Shown here in pieces: positions 2,621 through 52,559 of a stretch of DNA of 64,000 nucleotides. The stretch is from NCBI GenBank assembly GCA_951406725.2, contig OX597817.1:42160001-42224000 (forward strand), given 5' to 3'. Within the stretch, counting starts at the first letter, position 1. Every line of letters begins with the position of its first letter. This DNA is from Octopus vulgaris (taxonomy: Eukaryota). The position numbers were made by a program, and so were the translations under genes. The notes beneath the pieces are model-generated. The model saw nothing but the letters and a program-made list of their open reading frames with translations, searched no databases and was not told the DNA's origin.

Positions 2621-3529
2621 CTACAATTCTATATTTAAGAGATGAGGAATTATGTACATTACAGCGTAATGTGTTCTTGAGCAAAACACTTCATTTTACA
2701 TTTATTCCAGTCTGCTCGACTTTAAATGAGTAACTCTGCAACAAAATGATGTCTTGTTTAGGGGGAATGTTGTGATTTTGGTCACTTGTGTGCGAGTATG
2801 TGTGCATGTGTGTGTGTGTGTGTGTGTACATCCTCCTTGTTCTCACATTGTGTGATGGTTGTAACCAAGCACTGTTTCTAAAAACTTGTCTGGCCATTAG
2901 GAAATATTAATCTTGCTTGGAAATAGGAGGAACATCGAGGAAGATCAGTCATATAAAATCTGCTTCAAAGAATTCTGTCTGATCCATGCAAACATGGAGA
3001 AGTGGACATTAAACCACTGATGGCAAAGATGATGATGATGATGATGATGACAATGATGGTGGTGGTAGTGATCATGGTGATGATGGTGATGATGATGGTG
3101 ATGATGGTGATGATGATAGTGATGATGATGGTGATGAAAACGAGGAGGAGGAGGATGGCAGACGTGTTTCACTCACCATCTTTAAAAAACAAAAACAAAC
3201 CAGTCTTTTAATTAATTTGTATTTCTTATCAATAGAAATATTTCTCAGGTTTGATATGAAATTTCATAATCTCAGTAGTTAATATGATAATACAAATAAT
3301 TTCATTAATATGAACATTTAAATAGATTACCAATACAACTGCCATAGCTGTAATCACCATTGCCATCTTGTCATTATTACAACATTGATTTTTAACCTGT
3401 TTAAATGGTTTGTGTAGGTCTTCCACTATTTGATGTCTGCATATGTTTCAATCCAGTGTTAGTATTACAACTATCTATTATCTTGTTCTTGTTTCAGTCA
3501 ATGGACTATGGCCACGCTGTAGCACCACC

Positions 3530-4768
3530 TAATGTTTCTGCCAGTATTTCACCCGTCTATTCAGTTAACAGTAATACCAGTCACAACAGTAACTGGGAGT
3601 TACTCTTAAAATAGACTGGCATCCTATCCAAGGGGAATATTCGATGTTAGGAGGAACAACAACCTGAAATTCTATTCCTGGTACAGAAGGGATTTTTTAA
3701 TATTAGCTTTAGTTACCTTTAAACTTGGCTTCATAATGTCCCTAGAAATCATTTGATATGGTGTGGTATAAAATTGCTATATTTCTTTAGCCATATCTGC
3801 AATATCATTTGTGAAGGAGCGTGGGTCAGTGGTTAGAGCGTCAGGCTTATAATCATGAGGTAGTGAGTTTGATTCCCAGACAGGGCTGTGTGTGTGTGCG
3901 CCATAGTCCATTGTTTCAGTCAATGGACTATGGTCATGCTGTAGCACCACCTTGATGGACTTAGCTTAGCTGACCAAATCAACTCTGGGACTTACTCTAA
4001 TCAGTCTCTTTTGCCAGTTTGGTAAGTTACATGGATGTAAACAAACCAACGCTAGGTGTCAAGTGGTAGGGGTGATGTAACATAACCACAGAAACATATA
4101 CATTATGTATACATTTATTACATTTATGTGTGCACACACACACACACATATATATACTACTATTACTACTAACTACTACAACTGCTACAACAACAACTAC
4201 TACTATTGCTGTGGTTATGTTACATCACCCCTATCACTTGAGAACTAGCGTTGGTTTGTTTACATCCTTGTATCTTACCAAACTGGCAAAAGAGACTGAT
4301 TAGAGTAAGTCCCGGCATTGATTTGATCAGCTAAGCAAAGTCCATCAAGGTGGTACTGCAGCATGGCCATAGTCCATTGACTGAAACAATGGACTATGGC
4401 ACACACACACACAGTCCTGTCTGGGAATCAAACTCACTACCTCATGATTATAAGCCTGACGCTCTAACCACTGACCCATGCTCCTTCACAAATGATATTG
4501 CAGATATGGCTAAAGAAATATAGCAATTTTATACCATACCATATCAAATAATTTCTAGGGACATTATGAAGCCAAGGTTAAAGGTAACTAAAGCTAATAT
4601 AAAAACCCTTCTGTACCAGAAATAGAATTTCAGGTTGTTGTTCCTCCTAACATCGAAAATTCCCCTTGGATGGGATGCCAGGCTATTTTAAGAGTAACTC
4701 CCAGTTACTGTTGTGACTGGTATTACTGTTAACTGAGTAGACGGGTGAAATGCTGACAGAAATGTTGG
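3530..4768. repeat. Long inverted duplication: arms 3530-4091 and 4209-4768, 117-bp spacer
   Basis: Arms are reverse complements with scattered substitutions; each holds unique DNA, a tRNA-like SINE head (3816-3885) and a SINE-B tail. Confidence 0.96.
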
Positions 4769-9458: not shown

Positions 9459-9472
9459 ACATATATATATAT

Positions 9473-9890
9473 ATATATAATATTAATTAGAGACAAAACC
9501 ACTATTATGCAAATCAAACAAAGAAAGACTTAATCCAATACATAAAAAATTTTATATAAATTAAATAAAATTAAATTCGCCACTACAATTGTTTCGTGTC
9601 TCTTCTAAGGACATTCATAACTTAAAATTGAATAGAAGATCTGAATACCACCTGATGAATGTCCTTAGAAGAGACACGAAACAATTGTAGTGGCGAATTT
9701 AATTTTATTTAATTTTATTTAATTTATATAAAATTTTTTATGTATTGGATTAAGTCTTTCTTTATTTGATTTGCATAATAGTGGTTTTGTCTCTAATTAA
9801 TATTATATAATATTTTACTATAAAATTGGATTCAGTCCTAAATCTGATTTTTCCCTGTAAATTTGGATTTATTCCCTAATATTTATTATT
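9473..9890 (+). mobile_element. Fold-back Penelope-like remnant, family P-A: arms 9473-9618 / 9655-9808 plus 3' tail, in (TA)n
   Basis: ~146-bp near-perfect inverted arms; hammerhead at the junction; tail shared with 27289-27415. Confidence 0.85.
9648..9693 (+). ncRNA. Type-I hammerhead ribozyme motif
   Basis: CCAC-CUGAUGA-a-UGUC(cuuagaaga)GACA-c-GAAA-CAAUUG-UA|GUGG: stem I CCAC/GUGG, palindromic stem III ACAAUUGU, predicted GUA cleavage after 9689. Confidence 0.82.
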
Positions 9891-9977
9891 ATATATATAT
9901 ATATACACACACACACATGCATATATGGATACAGGACATCACCAACGGTGTAAATAACATGAAATACATAAACAACC

Positions 9978-10397
9978 GCAGACGCAGGAGTGGCTGTGTG
10001 GTAAATAGCTTGCTAACCAACCACATGGTTCCGGGTTCAGTCCCACTGCATGGCATCTTGGGCAAGTGTCTTCTGCTATAGCCCCGGGCCGACCAATGCC
10101 TTGTGAGTGGATTTGGTAGGCAGAAACTGAAAGAAGCCTGTCGTATATATGTGTATATATATATGTGTGTGTATGTGTGTGTGTGTTTGTGTGTCTGTGT
10201 TTATCCCCCTAGCATTGCTTGACAACCGATGCTGGCGTGTTTACATCCCCGTCACTTAGGGGTTTGGCAAAAGAGACCGATAGAATAAGTACTTGGCTTA
10301 CAAAGAATAAGTCCCGGGGTTGATTTTCTCAACTAAAGGCGGTGCTCCAGCATGGCCGCAGTCAAATGATTGAAACAAGTGAAAGAGTAAAAGAGTA
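9978..10397 (+). mobile_element. SINE family B, full copy (tRNA head + CORE-like CTTGGGCAAGTGTCTT + internal microsatellite + LINE-like tail)
   Basis: About 20 full or partial copies, e.g. 12100-12500(-), 15200-15730(-), 17895-18180, 35155-35580, 41265-41650, 46045-46475(-), 51705-52105(-); (GTAAAAGA)n tail. Confidence 0.92.
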
Positions 10398-10584
10398 ACC
10401 AAAAAGGACCCTTCATCAGTTGTCAGTTGTCTATCTACTCCACATTTCAAGCATTCAATGACAATATGAGTCTTCAAAGACAGTTGCTCCCATAAATTCT
10501 AAAATATAATTTAGGATTTATGGAGGGTCAAAAATTTGGGAACAAAAAAAAATGACATTGGAGACATAGAAAGGAAACCAAACA

Positions 10585-11590: not shown

Positions 11591-12099
11591 AATTTTTGGT
11601 TTTTTAAAACAAAAGAGAAACACTCAAAATTAAAATTCAATATTGGGTGCTGAGAAAAATAATTATCCAATTTCAATACTCTGCAATTAACAAATATTCG
11701 TAAGTGGAATTTACAAAAAGCAAATAAATAAATTAACGAAGAAGAACAACAACAACAATGACAACAGCAGCAGCAACAATTATGATGATAATAATGATCC
11801 TTTCTATTATAGACACAAGGCCTGGATTTTGTGGGGAGGGGGACAGCCGATTACATTGACCCCCCAGTACTCAACTGGTACTTAATTCATCGACCCCCTC
11901 CCTCCCGAAAGGATGAAAGGTTAAGTCAACCTCGGCAGAATTTGAACTCATAATGTTGCAGCAGAAGGAATACCACTAAGGATATTGCCCAGCATGCTAA
12001 CAATTCTGCCAGCTCATCACTTTAATAATGAGAAGAAGAAGAAGAAAAATGATAATGATAATAATAATATTAATAATAATAGTATATAAATGTATATAC

Positions 12100-12295
12100 T
12101 CTTTACTCTTTACTCTTTACTTGTTTCAGTCATTTGACTGCGGCCATGCTGGAGCACCGCCTTTAGTTGAGCAAATCGAAGCCCGGGACTTATTCTTTGT
12201 AAGCCCAGTACTTATTCTATCGGTCTCTTTTGCCGAACTGCTAAGTGACGGGGACATAAACACACCAGCATCGGTTGTCAAGCACAGACACACAA

Positions 12296-12328
<33 letters not shown>

Positions 12329-12500
12329 CATATATACGACAGGCTTCTTTCAGTTTCCGTCTACCAAATCCACTCACAAGGCATTGGTCGGCCCGGGGCT
12401 ATAGCAGAAGACACTTGCCCAAGATGCCACGCAGTGGGACTGAACCCGGAACCATGTGGTTGGTAAACAAGCTACTTACCACACAGCCACTCCTGCACCT
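12100..12500 (-). mobile_element. SINE family B copy
   Basis: Reverse complement of 9978-10397. Confidence 0.9.
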
Positions 12501-12739
12501 ATATATATACATATATATATATGCATGAGTGTGTATATGTTTGTGTGTCTGTGTTTGTCCCCCCAACATCACTTGACAACTGATGCTGGTGTGTTTGCAT
12601 TCCCGTAACTTAACGGTTCAGCAAAAGGGCTCAAGTCCTGGGGTCAATTTACTCAACTAAAGGCGGTGCTCCAGCATGGCCACAGTCAAATGACTGAAAC
12701 AAGTAAAAGAATAAAAGAATAAAAGAATACGCATGTATG

Positions 12740-24709: not shown

Positions 24710-27043
24710 ATGTGTGTGTGTGTATGTGTGTGTGTGTGCGTGCATGTGAGCATGAGCATTTAGAAATTCCAGTGTCTTCTAGAAATTCCAGGTTTGATGC
24801 CTAGGAGTGCATCTAACCCACTGGGGTGGGTTGAACTCTGAGCAGGGGCTAAAGGCAACAAGACTAGGAAATGGAAAACTCAAACAAGAAAAGCCTGAGG
24901 TATGTTATTTACTCAGATTATGGCAAATATTTTCTCCAACATTCTGCTATCTTCATTTCCCAAAATCACGGCTGATTGAACACAAGCCATCACCACTGAA
25001 AACAAATAATTTGTGTGTGTAGACAAAGAATCAGTATTACAAATCAATTTGGTTTTTACAACCAGCTGAGAACTTATCTCACTGTTATTCACTCTTATTT
25101 AATAGATGCAGTATCTATTACAAAATGGAATTTATGGTATATTTGATATGAATTTTAATGTACGTTATGTATTTTAATACATATACATATCGGTGCAGGC
25201 ATGGCCGTGTGGTAAGAAGATTACTTCCTAGCCACATAGATCTGGGTTCAATCTCACTGTGTAGCACCTCTATTGTAGCTTCTGACTGACCAATGCCGGT
25301 AGTACATAAAAAGCACCCACTACACCTTTGGAGTGGTTGGTGTTAGGAAGGGCATCCAGCTGTAGAAACATGGCTAGAACAGATTGGAGCTTAGCACATC
25401 CTTCTGGCTTGCCAGTCCTCAGTCAAACCATCCAACCCATGCCAGCATGAAAAGCAGACATTAAATAATGATGATGATAGGCACAGGCGTTGATATGTGG
25501 TAGGAAGTATGCTTTCCAACATTTGGTTCTGAGTTCAGTCCCACTGCATGTCACCTTGGGGAAGTGTCATGTACCATGGCCTCATGCTGACCAAAGCCTT
25601 GTGAATAGATTTTGTAGAGAGAAATCAAAAGGAGCCAGTCTTGTGTGTGTGTCAGTCATTTTTCAGTCATTTGACTGCGGCCATGCTGGAGCACTACCTT
25701 TAGTCGAACAAATCAACCCCGGTACTTATTCTTTGTAAGCCTAGTATTTATTCTATCGGTCTCTTTTGCCGAACCGCTAAGTTACGGGGATGTGAACACA
25801 CCAACATCGGTTGTCAAGCGATGGTGTGAGGACACCACCACTTGTCAACCAGTGTTGGTGTGTTTAGATCTTCATCACTTAGCAGTTCAACAAAAGAAAT
25901 TAATAGAATTAATAATACCAAGCTTCAGAAAAAAAGGTGCTGGGGCTGATTCCTTTTACTAAATTCCTTCAAGGAGGTGCCCCAGCATGACCACAGCCTA
26001 ATGACTGAAACAAATAAAAGATATAAAGATATTTTAATATATTAAAATGCAGTGAGGTGGTGAGACAACAGAATCATTAGTTTGTCAGGTAAGGCCCCTA
26101 GCACTATTTCATTTGGCTTTTACATTCTGATTTCAACTTCCGCAAAGGTTGACTTTGCCATTGATCTTTTTGGAGTCAATAAAATAAGTACCAGTTGAAT
26201 ACTGGAGTCAATATAATTGACTTACCCCTTCCCCCAAAGTTGCTGGCTTTGTGCCAAAATGTGAAACCAATATATATTAAAATACAGTAAGGTGGTGAGC
26301 TGGCAGAAATGTTATCACACCGGGTGAAATGCTTAGTGGTATTTCATCTGTCATTACATTGTGAGTTCAAATTCCGCCGAGGTCGACTTTGCCTTTCATC
26401 CTTTCGGGGTCAATAAATTAAGTACCAGTTACGCACTGGGGTCGATGTAATCGACTTAATACCTATGTCTCTCCTTGTTTGTCCCCTCTGTGTTTAGCCC
26501 CTTGTGGGTAATAAAGAAATAAGTATTTCTTCTATCTTTATGTTTCAAGTACAAATTCCACCAAGGTCGACTTTGCCTTGTGCATTTCAATATATATTGT
26601 CTAAATAGATATTCTTTAATATATATTAAAACAACGTATATAATCCCCATATATTATTATACATTATATTCTTAAATGTTAATATCATACATTAGTTATT
26701 CTAATAGTTTTCTTCATTTACTTAAAAAAATACGTTTCCATCAGTATTCTCCCTTGCTTGTCATCTCTAACACTATTAATGGTTATTCAAATATATCTAA
26801 AGCTTTCACCTTTTATTTTTTCTCATTCTTATTTGTGAACACAAACAACTTAAAAATATGGAACAATTAAGATAACTTCACTACTTTAATAAAGGAGATT
26901 ATTCATAGGTTTTCCTAATTAGGAGAAATTCAAAAATTAAATATTAAAGAGAAAGAAGCTGTATGAAGATTCAGAAAAATAATTATGTATTTATTGCGAC
27001 ATTTCCAAATATCTTGCGAAATTAGTCTAAATGAGGTATTTGT

Positions 27044-35068: not shown

Positions 35069-35730
35069 ATAAGGATAAAATTTTCCAAAAAAAATTTTAT
35101 CAGTGGCTAGCATATTAAAATACCTTTCAAGGTGAAAATCATAAACAATAATAAGGCGTAGAAGTTGCTGTGTAGTAAGTAACTTGCTTACAAACCACAT
35201 GGTTCCAGGTTCAGTCCCACTGCATGGCACCATGGGCAAGTGTCTTCTACTATAGCCTCGGGCCGACCAAAGCCTTGTGAGTGGATTTGGTAGACGGAAA
35301 CTGAAAGAAGCCCGTCGTATATATATGTATATATATGTATATATATGTATGTGTGTATATGATTGTGTATCTGTGTTTGTCCCCTCAGCACTGCTTGACA
35401 ACTGATGCTGGTGTGTTTAGGTCCCCGTAACTTAGTGGTTCGGCAGAAGAGACCGATAGAATAGGTACTAGGCTTCCAAAAAATAAGTCCTGGGATCGAT
35501 TTGCTCGACTAAAGGCGGTGCTCCAGCATGGCCGCAGTCAAATGACTGGAACAAGCAAAAGAGCAAAAGAGCAAAGAGCAAGGGCAAAAGAAAAAAAATT
35601 TTTATGCCAATATGCTGGAAAATAGACCTTAGATTGTCTAACCATATACAATATTGTATTTGGTTAGACAATCTAAAGTCTATTTTCCAGCATATTGGCA
35701 AAGAAAATATTTTTCTTTTGCCTTTATGAT
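35069..35730 (-). mobile_element. Fold-back family P-C, split by a SINE-B (35155-35580); spacer-less palindrome centred at 35652/35653
   Basis: 48-bp arms 35605-35700 with 2 mismatches; tail 35069-35152 matches 56900-56980. Confidence 0.8.
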
Positions 35731-36204
35731 TATTTATATATATATATATATTATTTATTTATATATTTCCAACGAAGAGCTATGCCCAAAATGTCAAAAG
35801 CTCTCTCTCTTTTTACAGAGCATAAAACTAATACACTCCATCTACACGTCCTCTTGTTTGTTATTGTGTTAATTTTGAAGTTCACTTATTTGATTTGACT
35901 CTGTGTGTGTGTGTGTGTGTCAGTGTGTGTGTTTGTCTCCCACCATCACTTGACTAATGGTGGTGTTGTTGTGTTTACATCCCTGTAACTTAGCAGTTCA
36001 GCAAAAGACACCAATAGAGTAAGCACCAGGTTCACCAAAGAAAAAAATTTAGTGCTAGGGTGTTGATTCATTTGACTCAAAATTCTTCGACAGCTGTGCT
36101 GAAGCTTGGCTGCAGTCTTATAACTGAAACAAATGCAAAGATAAGCATACCAACCTGTCTTCACACACAGCAAAGACAGCTTTAAAGCTATAGAAAGTCT
36201 TATA

Positions 36205-36803
36205 GGCGGCGAGCTGGCAGAATTGCTAGCACGCCGGGCGAAATGCTTACTGGTATTTCGTCTGCCATTACGTTCTGAGTTCAAATTCCGCCAAGGTCGA
36301 CTTTGCCTTTCATCCTTTCGGGGTCGATAAATTAAGAACCAGTTATGCACTGGGGTCAATGTAATCGACTTAATCCCTTTGTCTGTCCTTGTTTTGCCCC
36401 ACTCTGTTTAGCCCCTTGTGGGTAGTAAAGAAATAGGTATTTTGTCTGCCGCTACGTTCTGAGTTCAAATACCGCCGAGGTTGACTTTGCCCTTCATCCT
36501 TTCGGGGTCGATAAATTAAGTACCAGTTATGCACTGGTTCAATGTAATCAACTTAATCCGTTTGTCTGTCCTTGTTTTTCCCCACTCTGTTTAGCCCCTT
36601 GTGGGTAGTAAAGAAATAGGTATTTCGTCTGCCACTACGTTCTGAGTTCAAATTCTGCCAAGGTCGACATTACCTTTCATCCTTTTGGGGTCGATAAATT
36701 AAGTACCAGTTACGCACTGGGGTCGATGTAATCAACTTAATCCATTTGTCTATCCTTATTTGTCCCCTCTCTGTTTAGCCCTTGTGGGTAGTAAAGAAAT
36801 AGG
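36205..36803 (+). mobile_element. SINE-A trimer (one head plus three ~184-bp bodies) within one TSD
   Basis: TSD tatagaaagtcttatag (36189-36205) / tatagaaaatcttttag (36804-36820). Confidence 0.9.
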
Positions 36804-37158
36804 TATAGAAAATCTTTTAGCATTCCAGCTTGTCTTTAAATACAATTAATGAATAGTGAATCCATATTTGAAACAAAAACATCAAACTCAACAACTCAGT
36901 GTTGTTAACCAAATGATTTACCAGTTAGTTTAATGCAACTGGAACTGAAATACAGACTGAAAGCAAAAGAATAAGTTTGTTAGTTTTAGATTTTACAGAC
37001 AGGAATTGATGTGTTGGCCTATTGATTTGTCAGGCACTCAAAGATACAGTGAATTACCTGTTCAATGAAGAATGTATTAGATAAGGCCACAGCATTTTTT
37101 TTTAATGGATATAGTCGACTGAACGTAGAAAATATGTGCATGCGTGTGCTTCCATATC

Positions 37159-39570: not shown

Positions 39571-39814
39571 GATGTACTTGCATAGCAAGTGATTTGATCT
39601 GAGATCATGTGCTGGAACAAAAACAATTGCAGCGTGGAAGGTGTTTGTAAGCCATTTAAGAAACACACAAAAGCCGTTCGATTCACTTCAACATTTAAGT
39701 TTAATTTGTCAAGCGACGAAAATATTTTGACAAATTAAACTTAAATGTTGAAGTGAATCGAACGGCTTTTGTGTGTTTCTTAAATGGTTTACAAACACCT
39801 TCCACGCTGCAATT
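39571..39814 (-). mobile_element. Fold-back family P-D: 88-bp arms 39625-39712 / 39727-39814 plus one-sided tail
   Basis: One mismatch between arms; spacer gcgacGAAAatatt resembles a hammerhead 3' half; flanked by (TA)n/(GA)n. Confidence 0.8.
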
Positions 39815-42451
39815 ATATATGTATATATATATATATATATATATAAGAATGGTAAATAATTTTCCTGTGAGAAAGCGCGCATGGCAGAATTTTGGAGGGA
39901 AAATTTACGTTCCCAGTCGCCACTTATTTTTTCTTTATTTTTTCTTTACTATATATATATATATATACACACACACTCACACAAACCCCACCACATATAT
40001 GTATGTACATATGCACGTGCATGTGTGCGTGTGTGTTTTGTACACTTCACCACTTGACAACTGGTGTTTGTTTGCATACCTGAAACTGAGCAGTTCAGCA
40101 AAAGAGACCAATAGAATAAGTACCAGACTTTAAATAGTGGGGGGTAATTGTTTGACAAGGCAGTGCTCCTGCATGACAATGAAAAGTAAAAGACAAAAAT
40201 ATATGGTAAATTAAAAGCCATTTTATGATAAGAATAAAAACAACATTTAATCGGAAAACATTTCCCAAATCTCTTAACTACAATCCACTCACCATAAAGA
40301 TAGATGACACAGAGGCATTACTAACTCTCATGGCATAAGCTTAAGTTTAAGCAAAACTAGATTCCAAAATGGAAAATGGCTAGCTAATAGAAGCTAATCC
40401 TTTGGCATTAATATAATAAATGCTGTACAGATGTTGCTGATAAGCTTCAGTCAGTTCAGCTTAAGAAAACCTAAGATACAAAGGCAGCTACCAAACAAAT
40501 AAAGCAATCAAACAGCTTCTGTGGCTATAGCCATTCGATCTATATTGTAGTTATATTGGCCTAGGATTGAAGACTGTCTTAAAGATGATGAAGAATTTAT
40601 TGACGGAGATTTGGCTGTTAAGTTGACCAGGTCAAGTGCCTACATGGAAGTTCCTTTATTGGCTGCCAGTATTTCCACGAGGCAAATTTAATATCCTGTT
40701 ACTGTGGTTGTTGTTGTTGTTTTGTTTTTTTTTAAAGTAAAACAGATAGCTTGAACACAAGATGAATTTCCCAAGAATGGAGAATTATCTGTTTCAATAA
40801 ATATCAGCAAATATTTCTAAATTAGCTGAAGATCAAATTCTAAAACCAAAGAAAGATAATACGAAACGATGTCATCAATATCAGAGAAATGAGTTTTGAC
40901 AGGATCCCGAGAAATTTGAGTTAATATCATGATAAGAAAACTACTTTATGCAAGAATGGTGCTTATAAATAAAAGTTGAATATAATAGATAAATGATTAG
41001 GGTTTCAAGTGAAAGATCTAAGGTTTGTATCCTGTCACCAGAACAGTGTTGTATCTTCAACAAAGACATTTCAAGCTATCCTTTATAAAATTAGCAATAC
41101 ACTGTCTTTGTAACAACCAAACTGTAAAGCAGCTGATACCATCAGGAGGTACAGTTTGCAGTTGCAGTAGCTGTTTGTTGTAATTTAATCCCTCAGTTCA
41201 AGACATATCATCAAAGACAATCTTGTGATGACCAACTTGTTCTATATATACATATATATATATATAAGTAGCTTGCTTACCTACCACATGATCCTGGGTT
41301 CAGTCCCACTGTGTGGAACCTTAGGCAAGTGTCTTTCTACTATAGCCTTGGGCCGACCAAATCCTTGTGAGTGGATTTGGCAGATGGAAACTAAAAGAAG
41401 CCCATCATATATGTGTATATATATGTGTGTGTGTGTGTGTGTGCATGCATATGTGTTTGTGTGTCTGTGTTTGTCCTCCCAACATCGCTTGACAACCATT
41501 GCTGGTATGTTTACATCCCTGTAACTTAGCAGTTCGGCAAAAGTGACAAATAGAATAAGTACTAGGCTTACAAAGAATAAGCTCTGGGGTCGATTTACTC
41601 GACTAAAGGTGGTGCCCCAGCACAACTACAAGTAAAAGAATAAAAGAATATATATATATATATACTTTTTTACTCTTTTGCTTATTTCAATGATTTGACT
41701 GTGGCCATGCTGAGGCACTGCCTTAACAGATCTTTTAGTCAGAGAAATCAACCCCAAGACTTTTTCTTTGTAAGCCTAGTACTTATGGTGTTGGTCTCTT
41801 TTGAAGAACTGCTAAGTTAAAGGGATGTAAACACACCGACATTGGTTGTCAAGTGATGATGGTGGGGGGCACAAACATAGACACAAAGACACACACTACA
41901 CTCTCAGAGTGGTTGGCATAAGGAAGGGCATCCAGCTGTAGAAACTTTGCCAGATTAGGTTGGAGCCTTGTGTAGCCATGACTACACATTATTATGTTTT
42001 TCCCTTTATGCTTTCATGTGTGACTTGTAATTCTTATTTTTGCCAAGAACTTTTTCTTGCATATTTGGCATTGAAACGACTGGAACATTCCTTTACATGT
42101 CAGCTTGTAAATTGATTGTTTTCTCATCAAATGTTTTTAGATGTTTTTTTCTTTTCCTCTTGCTTTGACTTTAGCACATCTTTTTAACATCTTTTTAACC
42201 TTTACGTTACAATATTTCTGTTGAAAAACACACACTTTGTTTTAATTAATTCTTAAAATAATTAAGAATTTAGTAAAATAACTTCATCATCATTAAGCCG
42301 GTGTTTGAAACTTAAATTAAAATGAAATTTTGATGAAAGATTTTAATTTCGATTACTTTAAAACAGGATGTTCATGTCATAGGACCAGAAGTGGTTGCAG
42401 ATAGGTTGATATCAAAAGGGTTAAATTACTTTGAGCTTTGGTGGTCTGTCT

Positions 42452-43277: not shown

Positions 43278-44004
43278 GACGAACCAGACTCTCATGCTGG
43301 TGGCACATAAGAAACACCATTCAAACATGGTTTATGTCAGTGCTGCCTGACTGATCACCATGCCAGTGGCACATAAAAAGTATGCACTACACTCTCGGAG
43401 TGCGTGGCATTAGGAAGAACATCCAGCTGTAAAAACCTTGTCAGATCAGATTGGGGCCTGGTGCAGCCTCCTGGCTTGCCAGTCCTCAGTCAAACCATCC
43501 AATGCATGTCAGCATGGAAAGCAGATGTTAAACGAGGATGACAATGATGGGGATGAGGATGATGATGATGATGATGATGATGACGACGACGACGACTAGG
43601 ACGATGACAACGATGATGATGATGATTGAAGCCTTTTGGTATGGTGAAATTTCTAATTAATTCTGTACATTATTTGAATGTCAAGACCACTGTCTAAGAA
43701 AGCATCAATAAATATCCCAATGGATGAAAGATTGGCTAATTTGGAGGATAATGCACAGCACCATGGGGTACCTTAAAAGCAGCTGATTAGTCATGCCATT
43801 CTCTGTAACACAGACCATCATGCCAGCACTAAAACTCTTAATGAGCTTAATGAATTTATCGTGTCAAACACATTTAATTATATTTATTATTCTTTGTTAA
43901 TTAGATCAAATGCTCTTGTCAAGAAGATAAATGTGATGTACAAATCATAATTTTACTCAAGGCATTTTCTCATTGTTTAGTAACCATAGAATATCATATC
44001 TACT

Positions 44005-44254
44005 TTATTTACATTATTTACATTCGACAGATATTTGTCCTCATCTTGTTTGATGTTAATACAACATTTTGGCTGATATACCCTCCATCCTTTATCAGGT
44101 GTCTTGGGGAAATTTCAAACGTGGGTTCTCATTCCTAAGGTATTTTTCGATGTTGTTATTATTACTATTCAGGTCACTGCCTGGAATTGAAATTGGAATC
44201 TAGGAGTTAGTAGCCCGCACTCTTAACCACTATGCTTTGAATAATAATGATAAC

Positions 44255-44304
<50 letters not shown>

Positions 44305-44486
44305 CAACACCGAAAAATACCTTAGGAATGAGAACCCAGGTTCGAAATTTCCCCAAGACATCTGATGAAGGCTGGAGGGTATATCAGCTGAAACGTTGAG
44401 TTAACAAACAAGATGAGGACAAATATTTGTCAAATGTAAATAAGGTAAATAATGTACATAATTCCTCATCTCTTAAATATAGAATT
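44005..44486. mobile_element. tRNA-headed, hammerhead-bearing fold-back element (family P-G) with 14-bp TSD
   Basis: TSD atatcatatctact at 43991-44004 and 44487-44500; minus copy 44235->44005 starts with A/B-box-like head; plus copy 44238-44486 lacks the head but has the full tail. Confidence 0.88.
44356..44402 (+). ncRNA. Minimal type-I hammerhead motif (partly mutated)
   Basis: gacau-CUGAUGA-a-GGCUG(gagggtatat)CAGCU-GAAA-CG-UU|gaguu; two-copy consensus gives stem I GACAC/GUGUU and palindromic AACGUU. Confidence 0.7.
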
Positions 44487-45599
44487 ATATCATATCTACT
44501 GTCTCATGTTCACTAAAGAACATAAATTAACTTTCATCCAGATCTGTTTGATGATGTTGATTAAGTAGTTAAGCACCATAAACTGAAATCTACCTACTGA
44601 TAAAAGTGAAATACCACTTTGATGGTCACCAATATACCTATAACTATTACATTTGTGAAACTGAATGATGGAGTCACTCCAAGGAACTTGAAGAACCTCT
44701 AACTTTTCTCATTTCAATTTAAACAATTCCATTAGATTATTAGTTGGGATGAAGTTGCTTGTATTGGCAATTATATTTGGCATCTGCACTTGGGATGTTT
44801 TTTCTTAGTTTGAAAATTGCTTAATTACATTGATGACTTCTGGTGAGTAGGGTGGATCATTCAGCTCTCTGTTGGTATCTGCTTGAAGTAATCTAAGAAC
44901 CAACTTCCGTTTTTATGGAGGACGGTCTTTTGAGAGCAATTTAAACATGATCTGTCCAGTGATTCAGAATTTAAGACATTTCACAGCAGTTTAACAAAAA
45001 ATGGTAATTCCAAAGTGTAAAAACTATATAATTCTATCAAAGCATCACAAAAATTAAGTGACCTTTCTGTTTCCATATCCTCGGATTTCTTTAGCTCTTA
45101 TGTTAATCTACTCACTCATCCTGCAGTTTCTGAAGTCCAAACTGGACCTAGACTACATTTTCTTTAAGCTATTTTCTCTTCAATTTTGACTGTAATTTTT
45201 TTTGTATAAAAACAGTTAAAAGGACATACATACATTTGCTTGCCATGTAGGTTGATGGAATTTGTTTTTACACAGTGGTCTCAAGGGTAATTTTTAAGCA
45301 ACATCTCTCAATAAAGTACACTTGTTATTGAATTTTTTTTGTTTTTGTTTTTAAATTAAGAATTTAGTTTTCTAGAAGTCTTTCAAAGAAGATTTAATTA
45401 TTCCATTGTTTTTTTAATTCCTGAAATATTTAATCTTCCTCCAGACTTAGTAAATTGGCATGTCTGTTTAAAATGAAACTTGGGTTTGGAGTTGATTTTA
45501 CTCTTTGCAAAGATTTTTGCCATATCCTGAACATTTCTCTTAGTAAGTAGAAAAGATCAATTGATGACACTTTATGTTCCAATAAGTTGCAAAGGTAAG

Positions 45600-46264
45600 A
45601 GCTTAAGGTTTACATGAATAATGTCTCTCAAAGGGAAATCTTATTTAGTTCTGTGAGATGTCAAAAGGCTTCACCATTTTAGTGAGATTAATCTAATGAG
45701 AAATTTGAATGCATCTAAACGTCATGATAATTTGGCTTAGAAGCATTCTTGGTAGTTATGGCAGTGGCAACATTAACTCAAAAGGTTTCTTGCTCCTTTC
45801 CTTATTTAGAGAGTTTGATTATTCCAAGAACAGATACAAAATCAGTTGTAGACATCTAAGGTCACGTTATTTACATCTTCTTCATTCATTATGTGATTTC
45901 TCATCACTGTTGTCATTCTGATGTGAAACTCATTCAATCTTACAAGGCAAAGAAAAGTTGGTTCGATTACTCAGTATTGGTATGAAGATGGTAGCACTAG
46001 TAAGACGCAATCAGAAAGCAATACCATGGGTTGTGAATAAAAATTTACTCTTTTACTTGTTTCAGTTATTTGGCTGTGGCCATGCTGGAGCACCGCCTTT
46101 AGTCAAGCAAATCGACCCCAGGACTTATTCTTTGTAAGCCTAGTACTTATTCTATCGGTGAATTTTGCCGAACTGCTAAGTTACAGGGACGTAAACACAC
46201 CAGCATCAGTTGTCAAGCGATTTGGGGGGAACAAACATAGACACACCAACATACACACACACAC

Positions 46265-46315
<51 letters not shown>

Positions 46316-47720
46316 TACGACGGGCTTCTTTCAGTTTCCATCTACCAAATCCACTCGCAAGGCTTTGGTTGGCCCGAGGCTATAGTAGAAGACACTTGCC
46401 CAAGGTGCTACACAGTGAACCTGGAACCATGTGGTTGGTAAGCCAGCTACTTACCACACAGCTACTCCTGCACCTACATTGATGATTTTTCAATATAATG
46501 TTGAATTATGTCTCCAAGTAATATATAAACCTTCAAAAGAAATTTTAGACTTTGTCCTTCATAAAATAAGGATTGGTTTGAAGAAAATAGCTTTGAGGTA
46601 CAACCAGCTTTTGAGAATAGGCAAAGCTTGTATTACTTCTGGATAGGAAATATAAATTCTTTTGCCTAGTCTGCTATAACTAACATACAGGTAAAACTTA
46701 AGTGAATAAAATAAAATTGGTCTTCAAGGGACAACTAATAGACAAGATGTTAAATCATTCTAAAACACCTTAAATGCTTAAAAGGTGTATCTGGGCTTTC
46801 AGCCAATGAAAGTTTTCCTGGAGATAATCGCTTCAGTAACAGTAGTAATATTTTAAAACTAGAGGCAGAACATTTTAACAATGTTTTAAATAGAGAATTG
46901 AAGGTTGTTAAGTCAGTAATTAACAAATTACACCAGAGGCCAGTAACAGATTCTCTTGTATCCATTCCAATTTTGGCAGAGATAAAATCAATCATAAAGT
47001 AACTTGTAAATAGCCAGTCTCCTGGTTATAATGGCATTCTGCTTGCAGCATGCTCATTAGTAAGCTAACAGAATTTTTAACTTTATTGAGGCAGTAATGT
47101 TCTGTACTGCAGTAGTTTACAGAGGCTTTGTTCTTTTGTACAAACACAAAGGCAGGAGGTGTCGATATGAAAATCACAGAGGTATCTTTCTGTTTTCTAT
47201 TGCAGCGAAAATTATTCCACATCATCTTAGATTATTTAAATTCCAGTTTTATTGACTGTATATCCCAAAGGTGAGTGTGGATTTAGGCCTGGCCAAATAA
47301 CAATAGACATGATTTCTCAGCCATGATCATTTGCTGTAAAAGGTTAGCGAATAAACCAAAGAGTTCTATGTGATCTTTCTTGACCTCATCAAGCTTTTAG
47401 AATGTTCAGGTTAACTTGAGCATTCCTTGAAATGTTTAAATGTCTAAATGTCATCTCCATCCATGAAGGAACAAAAGAATCATTGCAACCAAATGCAGAA
47501 TAGTTTAACTATTTTGACATGAACTATGAATCCGAGCAAAGGGACTTTGCTTCTGTTCTGTTTGCTATATTATTTTCTCTCATACTTAATCTGTTTAAGA
47601 AGTGCATTTGTTTAACTTTGAACTACAGGGGAAGTTTACAATCAGCAACACTTTATGGCAAGAAGCTAAATCAATGCTTCAACGGATGTGAGATCAATTT
47701 ATTAACATTTGAACTTGTAA
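45600..47720 (+). mobile_element. Highly decayed RTE LINE (APE endonuclease, linker, RT), split by a SINE-B at 46045-46475
   Basis: GSYGSGNINSKGFLLLSL..KISCRHLRSR (EN); AEHFNNVLNR..SPGYNGI; LYKHKG..NHRGIFLFSIAAKI; ECGFRPG; VIFLDL. Confidence 0.82.
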
Positions 47721-48728: not shown

Positions 48729-48760
<32 letters not shown>

Positions 48761-48769
<9 letters not shown>

Positions 48770-49212
48770 TAGTGTACATTTAAATACATAAGAGGCATTC
48801 ATCATAGGACTCCTTGCACGCTAGAGAACAGTTAAATTCCAAACAACTATTAGGGGTAAAATTTCGAAGGGAATGAAAAATATATATATTTAATCTAAAG
48901 TGTACCTGCTGAAGAAGACTTCGCCTAGCAAATTATTTTTTTGCTAAAAAAAAGTCTGAAACCATTGGTCCAGGAGTTAGATGATAAATATTTTTATCTT
49001 TCATTCCCTTCGAAATTTTATCCCTAATAGTGGTTTGCAATTTAACTGTTCTCTCTAGCGTGCAAGGAGTCCTATGATGGATGCCTCTTATGTGTTTAAA
49101 TGTACACTGTATTTATATGAATAATATATAGTCTATTGACTAAATTTTTACACACTAGGCCACTGGTAATGGAAATTTCTAATATTTCTGATTACCCTTT
49201 GATATTATTAAT
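48761..49212 (+). mobile_element. Fold-back family P-E: arms 48761-48878 / 48999-49118, hammerhead in the spacer, tail to (TA)n
   Basis: ~118-bp inverted arms with a few substitutions; (TA)n on both sides. Confidence 0.86.
48905..48974 (+). ncRNA. Type-I hammerhead ribozyme, intact core
   Basis: CCUG-CUGAAGA-AGACUU..UAGCAAA(loop)UUUGCUA..AAGUCU-GAAA-CC-auu-GG-UC|CAGG; predicted GUC cleavage after 48970. Confidence 0.88.
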
Positions 49213-51492: not shown

Positions 51493-52559
51493 CATTTGAC
51501 AGCAGCATTCAACATCTGTTTTCCATGCTGGCATGGGTTAGATCAGTAGTTCCCAAAGTGGGCAGTCCTACCCTCTTGTGGGTAATAGAAAGATCCTTTG
51601 GGGTGGGCATTGAAGAAAAATGAGGCAATAATGGTGTGGCCACAAAGGGGCAATGGATGTAAAAAAAAATAATAATGGTCTAATTAGGTTAAGTTTTGTG
51701 TGTCTCTTTTACTCTTTTACTTGTTTCAGTCATTTGACTGTGGCCATGCTGGAGCACCACCTTTAGTTGAGCAAATCGACCCCAGGACTTATTCTTTGTA
51801 AGGCTAGTACTTATTCCATCAGTCTCTTTTGCCAAACCACTAAGTTACAGGGTCGTAAACACACCAGCATCAGTTGTCAAGTGATGTTAGGGGAACAAAC
51901 ACAGACACACAAACATATACATACATATATATATACATATATACGACGGGCTTCTTTCAGTTTCCATCTACCAAATCCTCTCACAAGGCTTTGGTCAGCC
52001 CAAGGTTATAGTAGAAAGACACTTGCCCAAGGTGCCACACTGTGGGATTGAACCCGAACCATGTGGTTGGGTAGCAAGCTACTTACCACACAGCCACTCC
52101 TGCGCCAATACAGTTGTTTTGAATTTGCTTCAGAAAGTGGTCTCTGTTTATGGTGGTATATATATATAAATATATATTATGTGGATATATATGTATGTGT
52201 GTGTGTGAGTTATGAATGTATTAATGCTATTGTCATCCTCATCATCATCACAAACACACAAATACACACACACACACATACTCATATGCATATGTATATA
52301 TATATATATATATATATGTACACACATATGAGAGAAAGAGAGAGACAGAGAGAAAGCTGACTCTCATACAATCTCTGTCTACCGAAATTCACTCGCAAGA
52401 TATCAGTCCGACGGAAGCTATCAAAGAAGACACACTTTAAAGTGCTGCTTCCTGTAATAGAACCAAGAACCACATCATTGCAAAGCAAACATCTTGATAG
52501 CACTGTCATGTCTTACATCCATAGAATGTCTGTAATTTTATTTTGAGGGATTGACCAAG

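What the first reader, a model, noticed from the sequence alone, without database searches (positions are those of the whole stretch)
43991..44500. tRNA-headed, hammerhead-containing element inserted in Penelope-style fold-back form: candidate Penelope-mobilised ribozyme SINE
Seen: a perfect 14-bp TSD (atatcatatctact) brackets one insertion. It has a minus-strand copy starting with a tRNA-like head (GCATAGTGGTTAAGAGTGCGGGCTACTAACTCC..ATTTCAATTCC), then (AAT)n and a hammerhead region, joined to a plus-strand headless copy with the complete 3' end. The two-copy consensus reads GACAC-CUGAUGA-a-GGCUG/CAGCC-GAAA-CG-UU-GUGUU. Known: Penelope-like elements carry minimal type-I hammerheads in their pLTRs, often with palindromic stem III acting as dimers, and leave inverted partial repeats; conventional SINE tails come from LINEs; the schistosome Sm-alpha repeat is a precedent for a Pol III repeat with a hammerhead. 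Inference: a Pol III non-autonomous element using Penelope RT/GIY-YIG machinery instead of a LINE. I cannot verify here whether this family is already described.
Basis: partly seen in the sequence, partly recalled or inferred. Interest (0 to 1): 0.9.

Follow-up and report, generated by a model that had tools for sequence, protein, structure and literature searches.

The report
tRNA-headed end of a Penelope retrotransposon
This insertion is two back-to-back broken copies of the terminal repeat of a protein-coding Penelope-type retrotransposon, and that repeat carries a tRNA-like stretch that likely serves as the element's promoter, which would explain the thousands of short SINE-looking copies in this genome.

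Summary
The anatomy is real: a 14-bp target-site duplication, two inverted arms, a tRNA-like head and a minimal hammerhead. It is not a separate SINE. In this 2.8-Gb genome the head lies 29 nt behind the stop codon of an autonomous Penelope/Poseidon-type ORF (RT + GIY-YIG); 25 of 30 loci found with the endonuclease alone carry it. The hammerhead 'body' is the first ~156 nt of the same ORF, i.e. the pseudo-LTR. Short and ORF-linked copies share sequence and age (0 of 1230 variant tests significant after correction). Inverted partial copies, a ~30-nt tail and a minimal hammerhead are textbook Penelope features. The unusual part: 79 of 89 sampled arms that reach the head stop at its 5' edge, about 14 nt before an A box. 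The captured tRNA-like segment therefore likely marks the element's transcription start (Pol III-type, untested); an RT stall at a local hairpin is the rival. 44 of 56 two-armed insertions pair one long with one short 3' end, supporting priming from both target ends. At this locus both boxes are damaged and both hammerheads are mutated. New variant of a known kind.

The parts
43991..44004 (.). Left copy of the 14-bp target-site duplication
   Evidence: family D3; family TSDs of 10 nt or more in 32 of 56 two-armed insertions vs 9 of 300 shuffled pairs, mode 11-13
44005..44235 (-). Minus arm: pseudo-LTR copy from tRNA position +10 to the SHORT 3' end (ORF about +128)
   Evidence: alignments (89% head, 92% body to the family majority)
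44170..44235 (-). tRNA-like segment, 5'-truncated at +10; A-box remnant 44227-44235, mutated B box 44183-44192
   Evidence: Rfam tRNA only 22 bits in a better copy
44149..44169 (-). Short (AAT)n linker between head and ORF start on the minus arm
   Evidence: sequence
44058..44103 (-). Minimal type-I hammerhead, core broken (G8>A, G12>A), inside the ORF start (ATG at 44132)
44236..44237 (.). 2-nt joint (TT) between the two arms
   Evidence: sequence; arm ends
44238..44486 (+). Plus arm: pseudo-LTR copy truncated at the end of the head, expanded (AAT)n, ORF start, LONG 3' end (ORF about +156)
44328..44486 (+). First 53 codons of the Penelope-like ORF (one stop); aligns with the N-terminus of the 847-aa relative P0003
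   Evidence: (window peptide 38% over 42 aa, E 0.005; longer natural copy L097 E 1e-27)
44357..44402 (+). Minimal type-I hammerhead: CUGAUGA and GAAA intact, palindromic ACGU stem III, three substitutions (C2.1>T, C11.1>T, stem I mismatch)
44462..44486 (+). Penelope 'tail': the stretch between the two family 3' ends, present on one arm only
   Evidence: PMC11167929, PMC8557442
44487..44500 (.). Right copy of the target-site duplication

Best explanation
The locus is a decayed, two-armed insertion of the pseudo-LTR of an autonomous Penelope/Poseidon-type retrotransposon, and the tRNA-like segment inside that pseudo-LTR likely acts as the element's internal promoter, so that short head-to-tail copies would be reverse transcripts of the element's own 5' leader. 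SHOWN: unit order is ORF (RT, GIY-YIG) - stop - 29 nt - tRNA-like segment (A and B boxes) - (AAT)n - ATG of the next unit with the hammerhead inside its first codons; family 3' ends fall at two sites about 27-30 nt apart (ORF +121-130 and +154-156); most arms end 5' at -7 to +9 of the tRNA-like segment; short and long copies are one sequence family of one age. INFERRED: (1) transcription starts at about G-6, 14 nt before the A box, as on Pol III type-2 promoters; (2) the element's protein nicks both target strands about 11-14 nt apart and starts reverse transcription internally on the RNA, at the long site from one nick and the short site from the other; (3) starting on the first copy of these sites gives a roughly 270-nt head-to-tail cDNA, starting on the downstream copy gives ORF-bearing copies; (4) two cDNAs join head-to-head, often through the TGCCC-AC-GGGCA palindrome at the RNA's 5' end, giving the inverted structure. 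The Penelope identity alone I put at 0.97; the confidence given is for the whole account including the promoter role.
For: Autonomous parent: shared sequence upstream of the head translates as a GIY-YIG C-terminus; RVT_1 at E 1e-9 and 6e-8 in linked ORFs; 569-aa open frame in L113 with 1537 relatives at E<=1e-20. 25 of 30 loci found with an endonuclease-domain query run on through the head. In L095 and L097 the body continues in frame into the ORF, and relative P0003 has the same hammerhead-overlapping peptide. Same family: 45 long vs 94 short arms, best of 1230 Fisher tests p=0.008 (not significant after correction); non-CpG divergence 5.0% vs 4.4%, p=0.12. Sharp 5' edge: exact CpG-free 20-mers number 896 just upstream of the head, 5148 in the head and 9103 at the ORF start; in 100 position-ordered loci, of 122 head arms 79 start at -17..+9, 10 read on, 33 start later. 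At base resolution (94 arms) 41 end at -6..+6, 20 end in a snap-back through -7, none at -8..-19. Direct-orientation switches onto G-6 in L359 and L338/L345; L343 and L348 start at the head and run past the tail into the ORF. Two-ended priming: 44 of 56 two-armed insertions have one long and one short 3' end, none two long; in 16 of 37 such pairs the short-ended arm reaches further 5', as at this locus, which a self-primed fold-back of the long arm would not give. In vitro a Poseidon protein cuts and extends both strands and starts at two internal sites (PMC11167929); the Drosophila Penelope promoter is internal and lies in the pseudo-LTR (PMC2377424).
Against: No direct evidence of Pol III transcription: three RNA runs showed no discrete start and equal depth on both mate directions (strandedness not on record). 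The 5' edge coincides with the left end of a palindrome and with a predicted RNA hairpin (-14..+10, -9.1 kcal/mol), so an RT stall or snap-back fits the same coordinates. Other template switches land at scattered positions, which weakens the G-6 switches as evidence, and L338/L345 are probably one event. The head does not fold as a tRNA (no ARAGORN call down to -ps80; Rfam 22 bits). Absence of T4 terminators in the 2.4-kb sense strand (p 0.01-0.03) is not significant against synonymous shuffles (p 0.10), and other retroelement ORFs in the loci are also T4-poor. Samples L125-L224 were anchored on exact 20-mers from one chromosome arm and lean to well-preserved copies; the head-anchored half cannot show ends 3' of the head. 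Hairpin opening with resection could also give unequal arms.
Confidence: 0.62

Rival explanations
1. Same autonomous Penelope-like element, but the tRNA-like segment is a passenger (an old SINE or tRNA fragment caught in the 3' UTR). The pile-up of 5' ends is caused by the reverse transcriptase stalling or the cDNA snapping back at the TGCCC-AC-GGGCA palindrome; the short copies are ordinary 5'-truncated copies.
For: The edge at -7 is exactly the palindrome's left end; 20 of 94 arms show snap-back; hundreds of RNA-run reads show the inverted head joined at -7; predicted RNA hairpin of -9.1 kcal/mol; heavy 5' truncation is general in PLEs (PMC8557442).
Against: The RNA hairpin should stop RT at +2..+10, yet 26 arms end at -6..+1 without snap-back. 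The cDNA hairpin is only -2.1 kcal/mol and would have to displace an RNA:DNA hybrid unless the RNA ends there (inference). About 89% of arms reaching +9 stop within this window, a lot for so weak a barrier.
Confidence: 0.25
2. One reading: a separate non-autonomous Pol III SINE lineage with its own source genes, sharing its tail with a Penelope partner.
For: Short head-to-tail copies outnumber ORF-linked ones about six-fold by exact 20-mer counts; intact A and B boxes in the family majority and 49 box matches in 100 loci; any short copy with intact boxes could be re-transcribed; Schistosoma Sm-alpha is a precedent (PMC6765202, passage).
Against: The head is part of the autonomous element (25 of 30); no diagnostic variants and equal divergence; short copies keep 1-6 nt of the ORF-side flank upstream of tRNA +1. 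The test has modest power (139 arms) and would miss source genes identical to the parent.
Confidence: 0.12
3. Chance nesting of a tRNA-SINE fragment into a Penelope remnant at this one locus.
For: None beyond the general abundance of tRNA-SINEs in the loci.
Against: Head followed by body within 300 nt in 25 of 29 other head-selected loci, further off in 3, absent in 1; fixed position behind the ORF.
Confidence: 0.01

Closest known systems
Poseidon PLE of Anolis carolinensis (PAc; PMC11167929, parts 1-2 of 4 read)
   Same: Single ORF with RT and C-terminal GIY-YIG; hammerhead overlapping the ORF start; two internal RT start sites about 30 nt apart giving the 'tail'; AT-rich targets (TSDs here 76% AT); both strands cut and extended.
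   Different: No tRNA-like segment or A/B box is mentioned in the parts read; here the ATG lies about 35 nt before the hammerhead core rather than at stem II.
Minimal type-I hammerheads of metazoan PLEs (PMC4209133, parts 1-2 of 4 read)
   Same: Short helix I (5 bp), extra base between 9 and 10.1, G10.1-C11.1 pair, palindromic stem III; that paper already notes pairs of motifs 100-700 bp apart on opposite strands, as here (about 255 bp apart).
   Different: No tRNA-like head is described in the parts read.
Drosophila virilis Penelope pseudo-LTR promoter (PMC2377424, passages)
   Same: Internal promoter within the pseudo-LTR, partial tandems, inverted terminal copies, 34-37 bp tail.
   Different: That promoter is a TATA-less LINE-like (Inr/DPE) promoter with an intron; here the candidate is a tRNA-type A/B box and no intron was seen between head and ATG.
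Schistosoma Sm-alpha / Sj-alpha (seen only through passages of PMC6765202; the original paper was not held)
   Same: Pol III-type promoter followed by a hammerhead in a repeat.
   Different: Sm-alpha is non-coding, often tandem, with a canonical hammerhead and no shown Penelope parent; here the unit is the terminal repeat of a coding PLE and occurs as dispersed, mostly inverted pairs.
Non-LTR retrozymes (bioRxiv 10.64898/2026.07.22.740005, part 1 of 5 plus passages; PMC7761336, passages)
   Same: Short hammerhead-bearing derivatives of PLE pseudo-LTRs, thought to use PLE proteins.
   Different: Retrozymes are head-to-tail tandem arrays; these copies are single or inverted pairs. The preprint's main text has no occurrence of 'tRNA' or 'promoter'; its supplements were not seen.

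Membership tests
EN+ Penelope-like element (Penelope/Poseidon) | Single ORF with PLE-type RT (DKG, YVDD motifs) | tested here: met
   RVT_1 above cut-off in 2 of 4 ORF pieces; motifs; 1537 relatives. All sampled copies are degraded.
EN+ Penelope-like element (Penelope/Poseidon) | C-terminal GIY-YIG endonuclease with CCHH motif | tested here: met
   By motif and alignment (CVYSIPCSCGRLYKGET...EEH...ADH); three listed relatives carry PF01541 (that this accession is GIY-YIG is recalled). Pfam itself gave no hit on this family's C-terminus.
EN+ Penelope-like element (Penelope/Poseidon) | Pseudo-LTR: 3' end of insertions equals the 5' region and ORF start (partial tandem) | tested here: met
   Body continues in frame into the ORF in L095 and L097; partial tandems.
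EN+ Penelope-like element (Penelope/Poseidon) | Minimal type-I hammerhead in the pseudo-LTR | tested here: met
   same architecture in 18 of 79 related loci (19 listed rows include one without it). No Rfam match. Cleavage not testable.
EN+ Penelope-like element (Penelope/Poseidon) | Inverted 5'-truncated copy and 30-40 bp tail at one end | tested here: met
   56 of 100 loci two-armed, 44 of them long+short; bimodal 3' ends.
Penelope/Poseidon vs Neptune/Nematis | [quoted passage not shown] | tested here: met
   Linker read in alignment A1; criterion from PMC8557442. No tree with named reference elements was built.
tRNA-derived SINE | Internal A and B boxes | tested here: met
   Present in the family majority and in 49 matches in 100 loci; absent from the window copy.
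tRNA-derived SINE | Transcribed by RNA polymerase III | not testable with these tools
   Indirect only: 5' edge; RNA runs uninformative; T4 test weak.
tRNA-derived SINE | Head is foreign to the autonomous partner; only the tail is shared | tested here: not met
   The head is inside the autonomous element in 25 of 30 endonuclease-selected loci.
tRNA-derived SINE | Own non-autonomous lineage (diagnostic variants) | tested here: not met
   0 of 1230 tests significant after correction; same divergence; modest power.
Non-LTR retrozyme | Head-to-tail tandem units each with a hammerhead | tested here: not met
   Copies are single, inverted pairs or occasional partial tandems.
Non-LTR retrozyme | Self-cleavage and circular RNA | not testable with these tools
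   Needs bench work.

The most novel reading that the evidence does not exclude
An autonomous, protein-coding Penelope-like retrotransposon replaced its promoter with a captured tRNA-type A/B box and is transcribed end to end by RNA polymerase III: its 2.4-kb sense strand has no T4 terminator, and internal RT initiation frees it from needing a defined RNA 3' end. Every short copy with intact boxes would then be a ready-made SINE, so this family would be a snapshot of a SINE being born inside its own Penelope partner.
Probability: 0.2. Interest if true: 0.85.

Novelty: new variant of a known kind. Interest (0 to 1): 0.55.

Why it matters
Penelope-like elements are the least understood retrotransposon class: their promoters are mapped in one fly element and their insertion chemistry in one in-vitro study. 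This family gives two handles. First, a tRNA-like A/B box sitting exactly where most copies begin suggests a Penelope promoter of Pol III type and a route by which tRNA-headed, hammerhead-bearing repeats such as Sm-alpha could arise from a pseudo-LTR without any LINE. Second, the one-long-one-short rule in 44 of 56 inverted insertions is genomic support for priming from both target ends at two internal RNA sites, which would explain the long-puzzling inverted Penelope structures. Practically, automated annotation would likely file these tens of thousands of arms (rough estimate 2-4 x 10^4) as a tRNA-SINE when they are Penelope ends.

Tried and rejected
Rfam at gathering score and ARAGORN: nothing in the window; Rfam at E<=5 gave only hairpin/low-complexity miRNA matches and one 22-bit tRNA match. 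Source of the head: the nearest other A/B-box SINE heads in the held loci scored only 30-40 against it (self about 120) under a first, stricter pattern, so its donor was not found. Terminator test: 0 T4 runs in 2428 sense columns vs 4.4 expected by base shuffle (p 0.01) and 2.9 by triplet shuffle (p 0.03), but 1.9 by synonymous shuffle (p 0.10), and other retroelement ORFs are similarly poor: kept only as 'compatible'. RNA: no listed holder was on record as RNA; three added RNA runs of organism B were laid on L232 at 85% likeness, about 6% of each run; both mate directions equal, no start site: no evidence either way. Related loci: 18 of 79 metagenome loci (29-48% protein identity) have a sense-strand minimal hammerhead, none with an A/B box within 400 nt upstream; the one box match (L270) lies outside the element. 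DNA around the closest protein relatives (55-68%, P0001-P0007) was not obtained, so when the head was captured is open. A search of the own genome with a relative's endonuclease returned this same family in all 30 loci fetched, so sister families were not examined. PDB search gave only weak RT matches. Copy-number calibration is noisy (about 4,000 / 38,000 / 20,000 arms for upstream / head / ORF start). Literature: ten searches found no paper describing a tRNA-like or Pol III promoter in a Penelope pseudo-LTR; Repbase, Dfam, SINEBase, subscription papers, Lunse 2017 and Ferbeyre 1998 could not be seen, so the family itself may already be deposited. Earlier scan notes: none. The host looks like an octopod cephalopod; this is recalled from the look of the repeats and was not tested.

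Full report
Observation. An exact 14-bp duplication (43991-44004, 44487-44500) brackets 482 bp made of two inverted arms about 85-91% complementary. The minus arm (44005-44235) reads head, short AAT linker, body; the plus arm (44238-44486) reads long (AAT)n, body, and ends about 25 nt further 3'. ARAGORN and Rfam call nothing at their cut-offs; the head is tRNA-like by its A and B boxes and reaches 22 bits against the tRNA model (cut-off 29) in the best of 10 family loci.

It is a large family. The window lies in a 2.8-Gb genome. Among 29 other loci found with the head, 25 have the body behind it within 300 nt, 3 further off and 1 not at all, which disposes of chance nesting. Exact CpG-free 20-mers occur 5148 times for the head and 9103 times for the start of the body.

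The parent is an autonomous Penelope-like element. Some copies continue upstream of the head into shared sequence that translates as an endonuclease C-terminus. [quoted passage not shown] One copy keeps a 569-aa frame with 1537 relatives at E<=1e-20. Of 30 loci fetched with a relative's endonuclease domain, a query blind to the head, 25 run on through the head and 5 break off before or at its start. The stop codon is 29 nt before tRNA position +1 and the next ATG about 106 nt after it. In L095 and L097 the body continues in frame into the ORF, and the 847-aa relative P0003 has the same N-terminal peptide across the hammerhead (E 1e-27 for L097; 38% over 42 aa, E 0.005, for the window's own 53 codons, which hold one stop). 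So 'head + body' is the pseudo-LTR. The linker lacks the Zn-finger motif that marks Neptune/Nematis (criterion from passages of PMC8557442), pointing to Penelope/Poseidon; no tree with named references was built. Contigs of a run labelled as another organism (X20) also span ORF end and head.

The hammerhead is the standard minimal PLE type: 5-bp stem I, CUGAUGA, one extra base, 5-6-bp stem II closed by G-C, GAAA, palindromic ACGU, predicted cut after GUU. These traits, and pairs on opposite strands 100-700 bp apart, are described in PMC4209133 (parts 1-2 of 4 read), where such motifs cleaved weakly and only as dimers. The same architecture is in 18 of 79 related metagenome loci. At this locus the minus-arm motif has lost G8 and G12 and the plus-arm motif has three substitutions; both are probably dead.

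How the inverted form arises. In 100 loci taken in chromosome order from the pattern lists, 3' ends cluster at ORF +121-130 and +154-156. 56 loci are two-armed and 38 one-armed; of the 56, 44 pair one long with one short end, 4 two short, none two long, 8 have an odd end. Duplications of 10 nt or more flank 32 of the 56 against 9 of 300 shuffled pairs (a few of the 32 are low-complexity). A fold-back primed by the first cDNA would have to start from the long-ended arm and leave the short-ended arm nested in it, yet in 16 of 37 clean pairs the short-ended arm reaches further 5' (13 the other way, 8 level), as in this window, where only the short arm has the head. This fits the in-vitro behaviour of the Anolis Poseidon protein, which cuts and extends both strands and starts at two internal RNA sites whose spacing is the tail (PMC11167929, parts 1-2 of 4 read). 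I infer two cDNAs primed from the two target ends and joined head-to-head; hairpin opening with resection is not excluded.

Is there a SINE? Not as a lineage. 45 ORF-linked and 94 short arms gave no diagnostic site (best p 0.008 of 1230 tests) and similar non-CpG divergence, 5.0% vs 4.4%, p 0.12. A 20-mer 11-30 nt upstream of the head occurs 896 times, about six-fold fewer than the head 20-mer. Of 122 head arms in the 100 loci, 79 begin at -17..+9, 10 read on upstream, 33 begin further 3'. At base resolution, of 94 arms 41 end at -6..+6, 20 snap back through the palindrome TGCCC-AC-GGGCA, 6 read on, 27 fall at the anchor's edge (+8 or later, a few of them indel-bearing copies that do read on), and none ends at -8..-19. 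G-6 is 14 nt before the A box, the usual place for a Pol III start (established knowledge). Two independent direct-orientation switches land on G-6, though other switches land at scattered sites, and two copies start at the head and run on into the ORF. Since the Drosophila Penelope promoter is internal to the pseudo-LTR (passages of PMC2377424), the simplest account is that this family's transcript starts at the head and that reverse transcription started on the first pseudo-LTR yields the short copies. The rival is a stall or snap-back at the same palindrome (RNA hairpin -9.1, cDNA hairpin -2.1 kcal/mol).

Tests that did not help. The sense strand has no T4 run in 2428 majority columns, but this is not significant against synonymous shuffles (p 0.10) and other retroelement ORFs look alike. 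Three RNA runs gave equal depth in both mate directions and no start site. None of the 18 hammerhead-bearing relatives has an A/B box upstream, so the head looks lineage-specific; DNA for the closest relatives was not obtained. The window's own head lacks the first A-box bases and has a broken B box, so this copy is unlikely to be a source.

Comparison and novelty. Everything Penelope-like here is known (PMC8557442, PMC4209133, PMC11167929). Pol III repeats with hammerheads are known from schistosomes (passage in PMC6765202), and non-autonomous pseudo-LTR derivatives are known as retrozymes (bioRxiv 10.64898/2026.07.22.740005, part 1 of 5 and passages, supplements not seen; passages of PMC7761336). 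Ten searches found no report of a tRNA-type A/B box inside a Penelope pseudo-LTR; PMC10886601, PMC6962438 and PMC8967140 (passages) added nothing on it. Repbase, Dfam, SINEBase and subscription papers were out of reach, so the family may be catalogued already. Verdict: real feature, new variant of a known kind, interest 0.55; the whole-element Pol III reading has probability about 0.2 and would deserve 0.85.

Noticed in passing
window 48748-49130: A 383-bp inverted pair (81% self-complementary) with a different hammerhead-like core near 48908-48960 (CTGAAGA-A-GACTT...AAGTC-TGAAAC): probably a two-armed end of a second Penelope-like family.
   Followed up: partly
window 2625-2661 (-): A 37-bp piece identical to the long 3' end of this family: a tail-only insertion.
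   Followed up: partly
window 3535-4762, 9469-9813, 39617-39822: Further long inverted pairs (87-90% self-complementary); type not determined (MITE or Penelope-like ends without a hammerhead).
   Followed up: no
window 9960-10404, 12099-12508, 35133-35581, 41265-41622, 46044-46479, 51694-52126: An abundant ~430-bp repeat with a tRNA-like 5' part and an internal (TA/TG)n tract, at least six copies in 64 kb; a conventional-looking SINE unrelated to the head studied here. At 41452-41893 two copies meet tail to tail.
   Followed up: partly
window 36204-36806: A second SINE-like repeat with a ~184-bp internal unit in tandem; related copies at 1983-2218 and 26290-26579.
   Followed up: no
L336, L338, L345, L360 (G000 C12, C3, C3, C19): Four of 30 loci switch template at the same ORF position, about 238 nt past the tail: a possible third RT start site or a preferred RNA 3' end.
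   Followed up: partly
L339, L340, L342, L358 (G000 C29 and C8): The same composite junction occurs in four loci, so this rearranged piece was multiplied as a unit, by duplication or inside another element.
   Followed up: no
window 43997-44004: The last 8 nt of the left target copy match the element's continuation beyond the short 3' end at 6 of 8 positions (pair I2); possible target-RNA pairing at priming, not tested across copies.
   Followed up: no
L270:1465-1539: A tRNA-like SINE head about 490 nt upstream of an unrelated truncated PLE; outside the element.
   Followed up: yes
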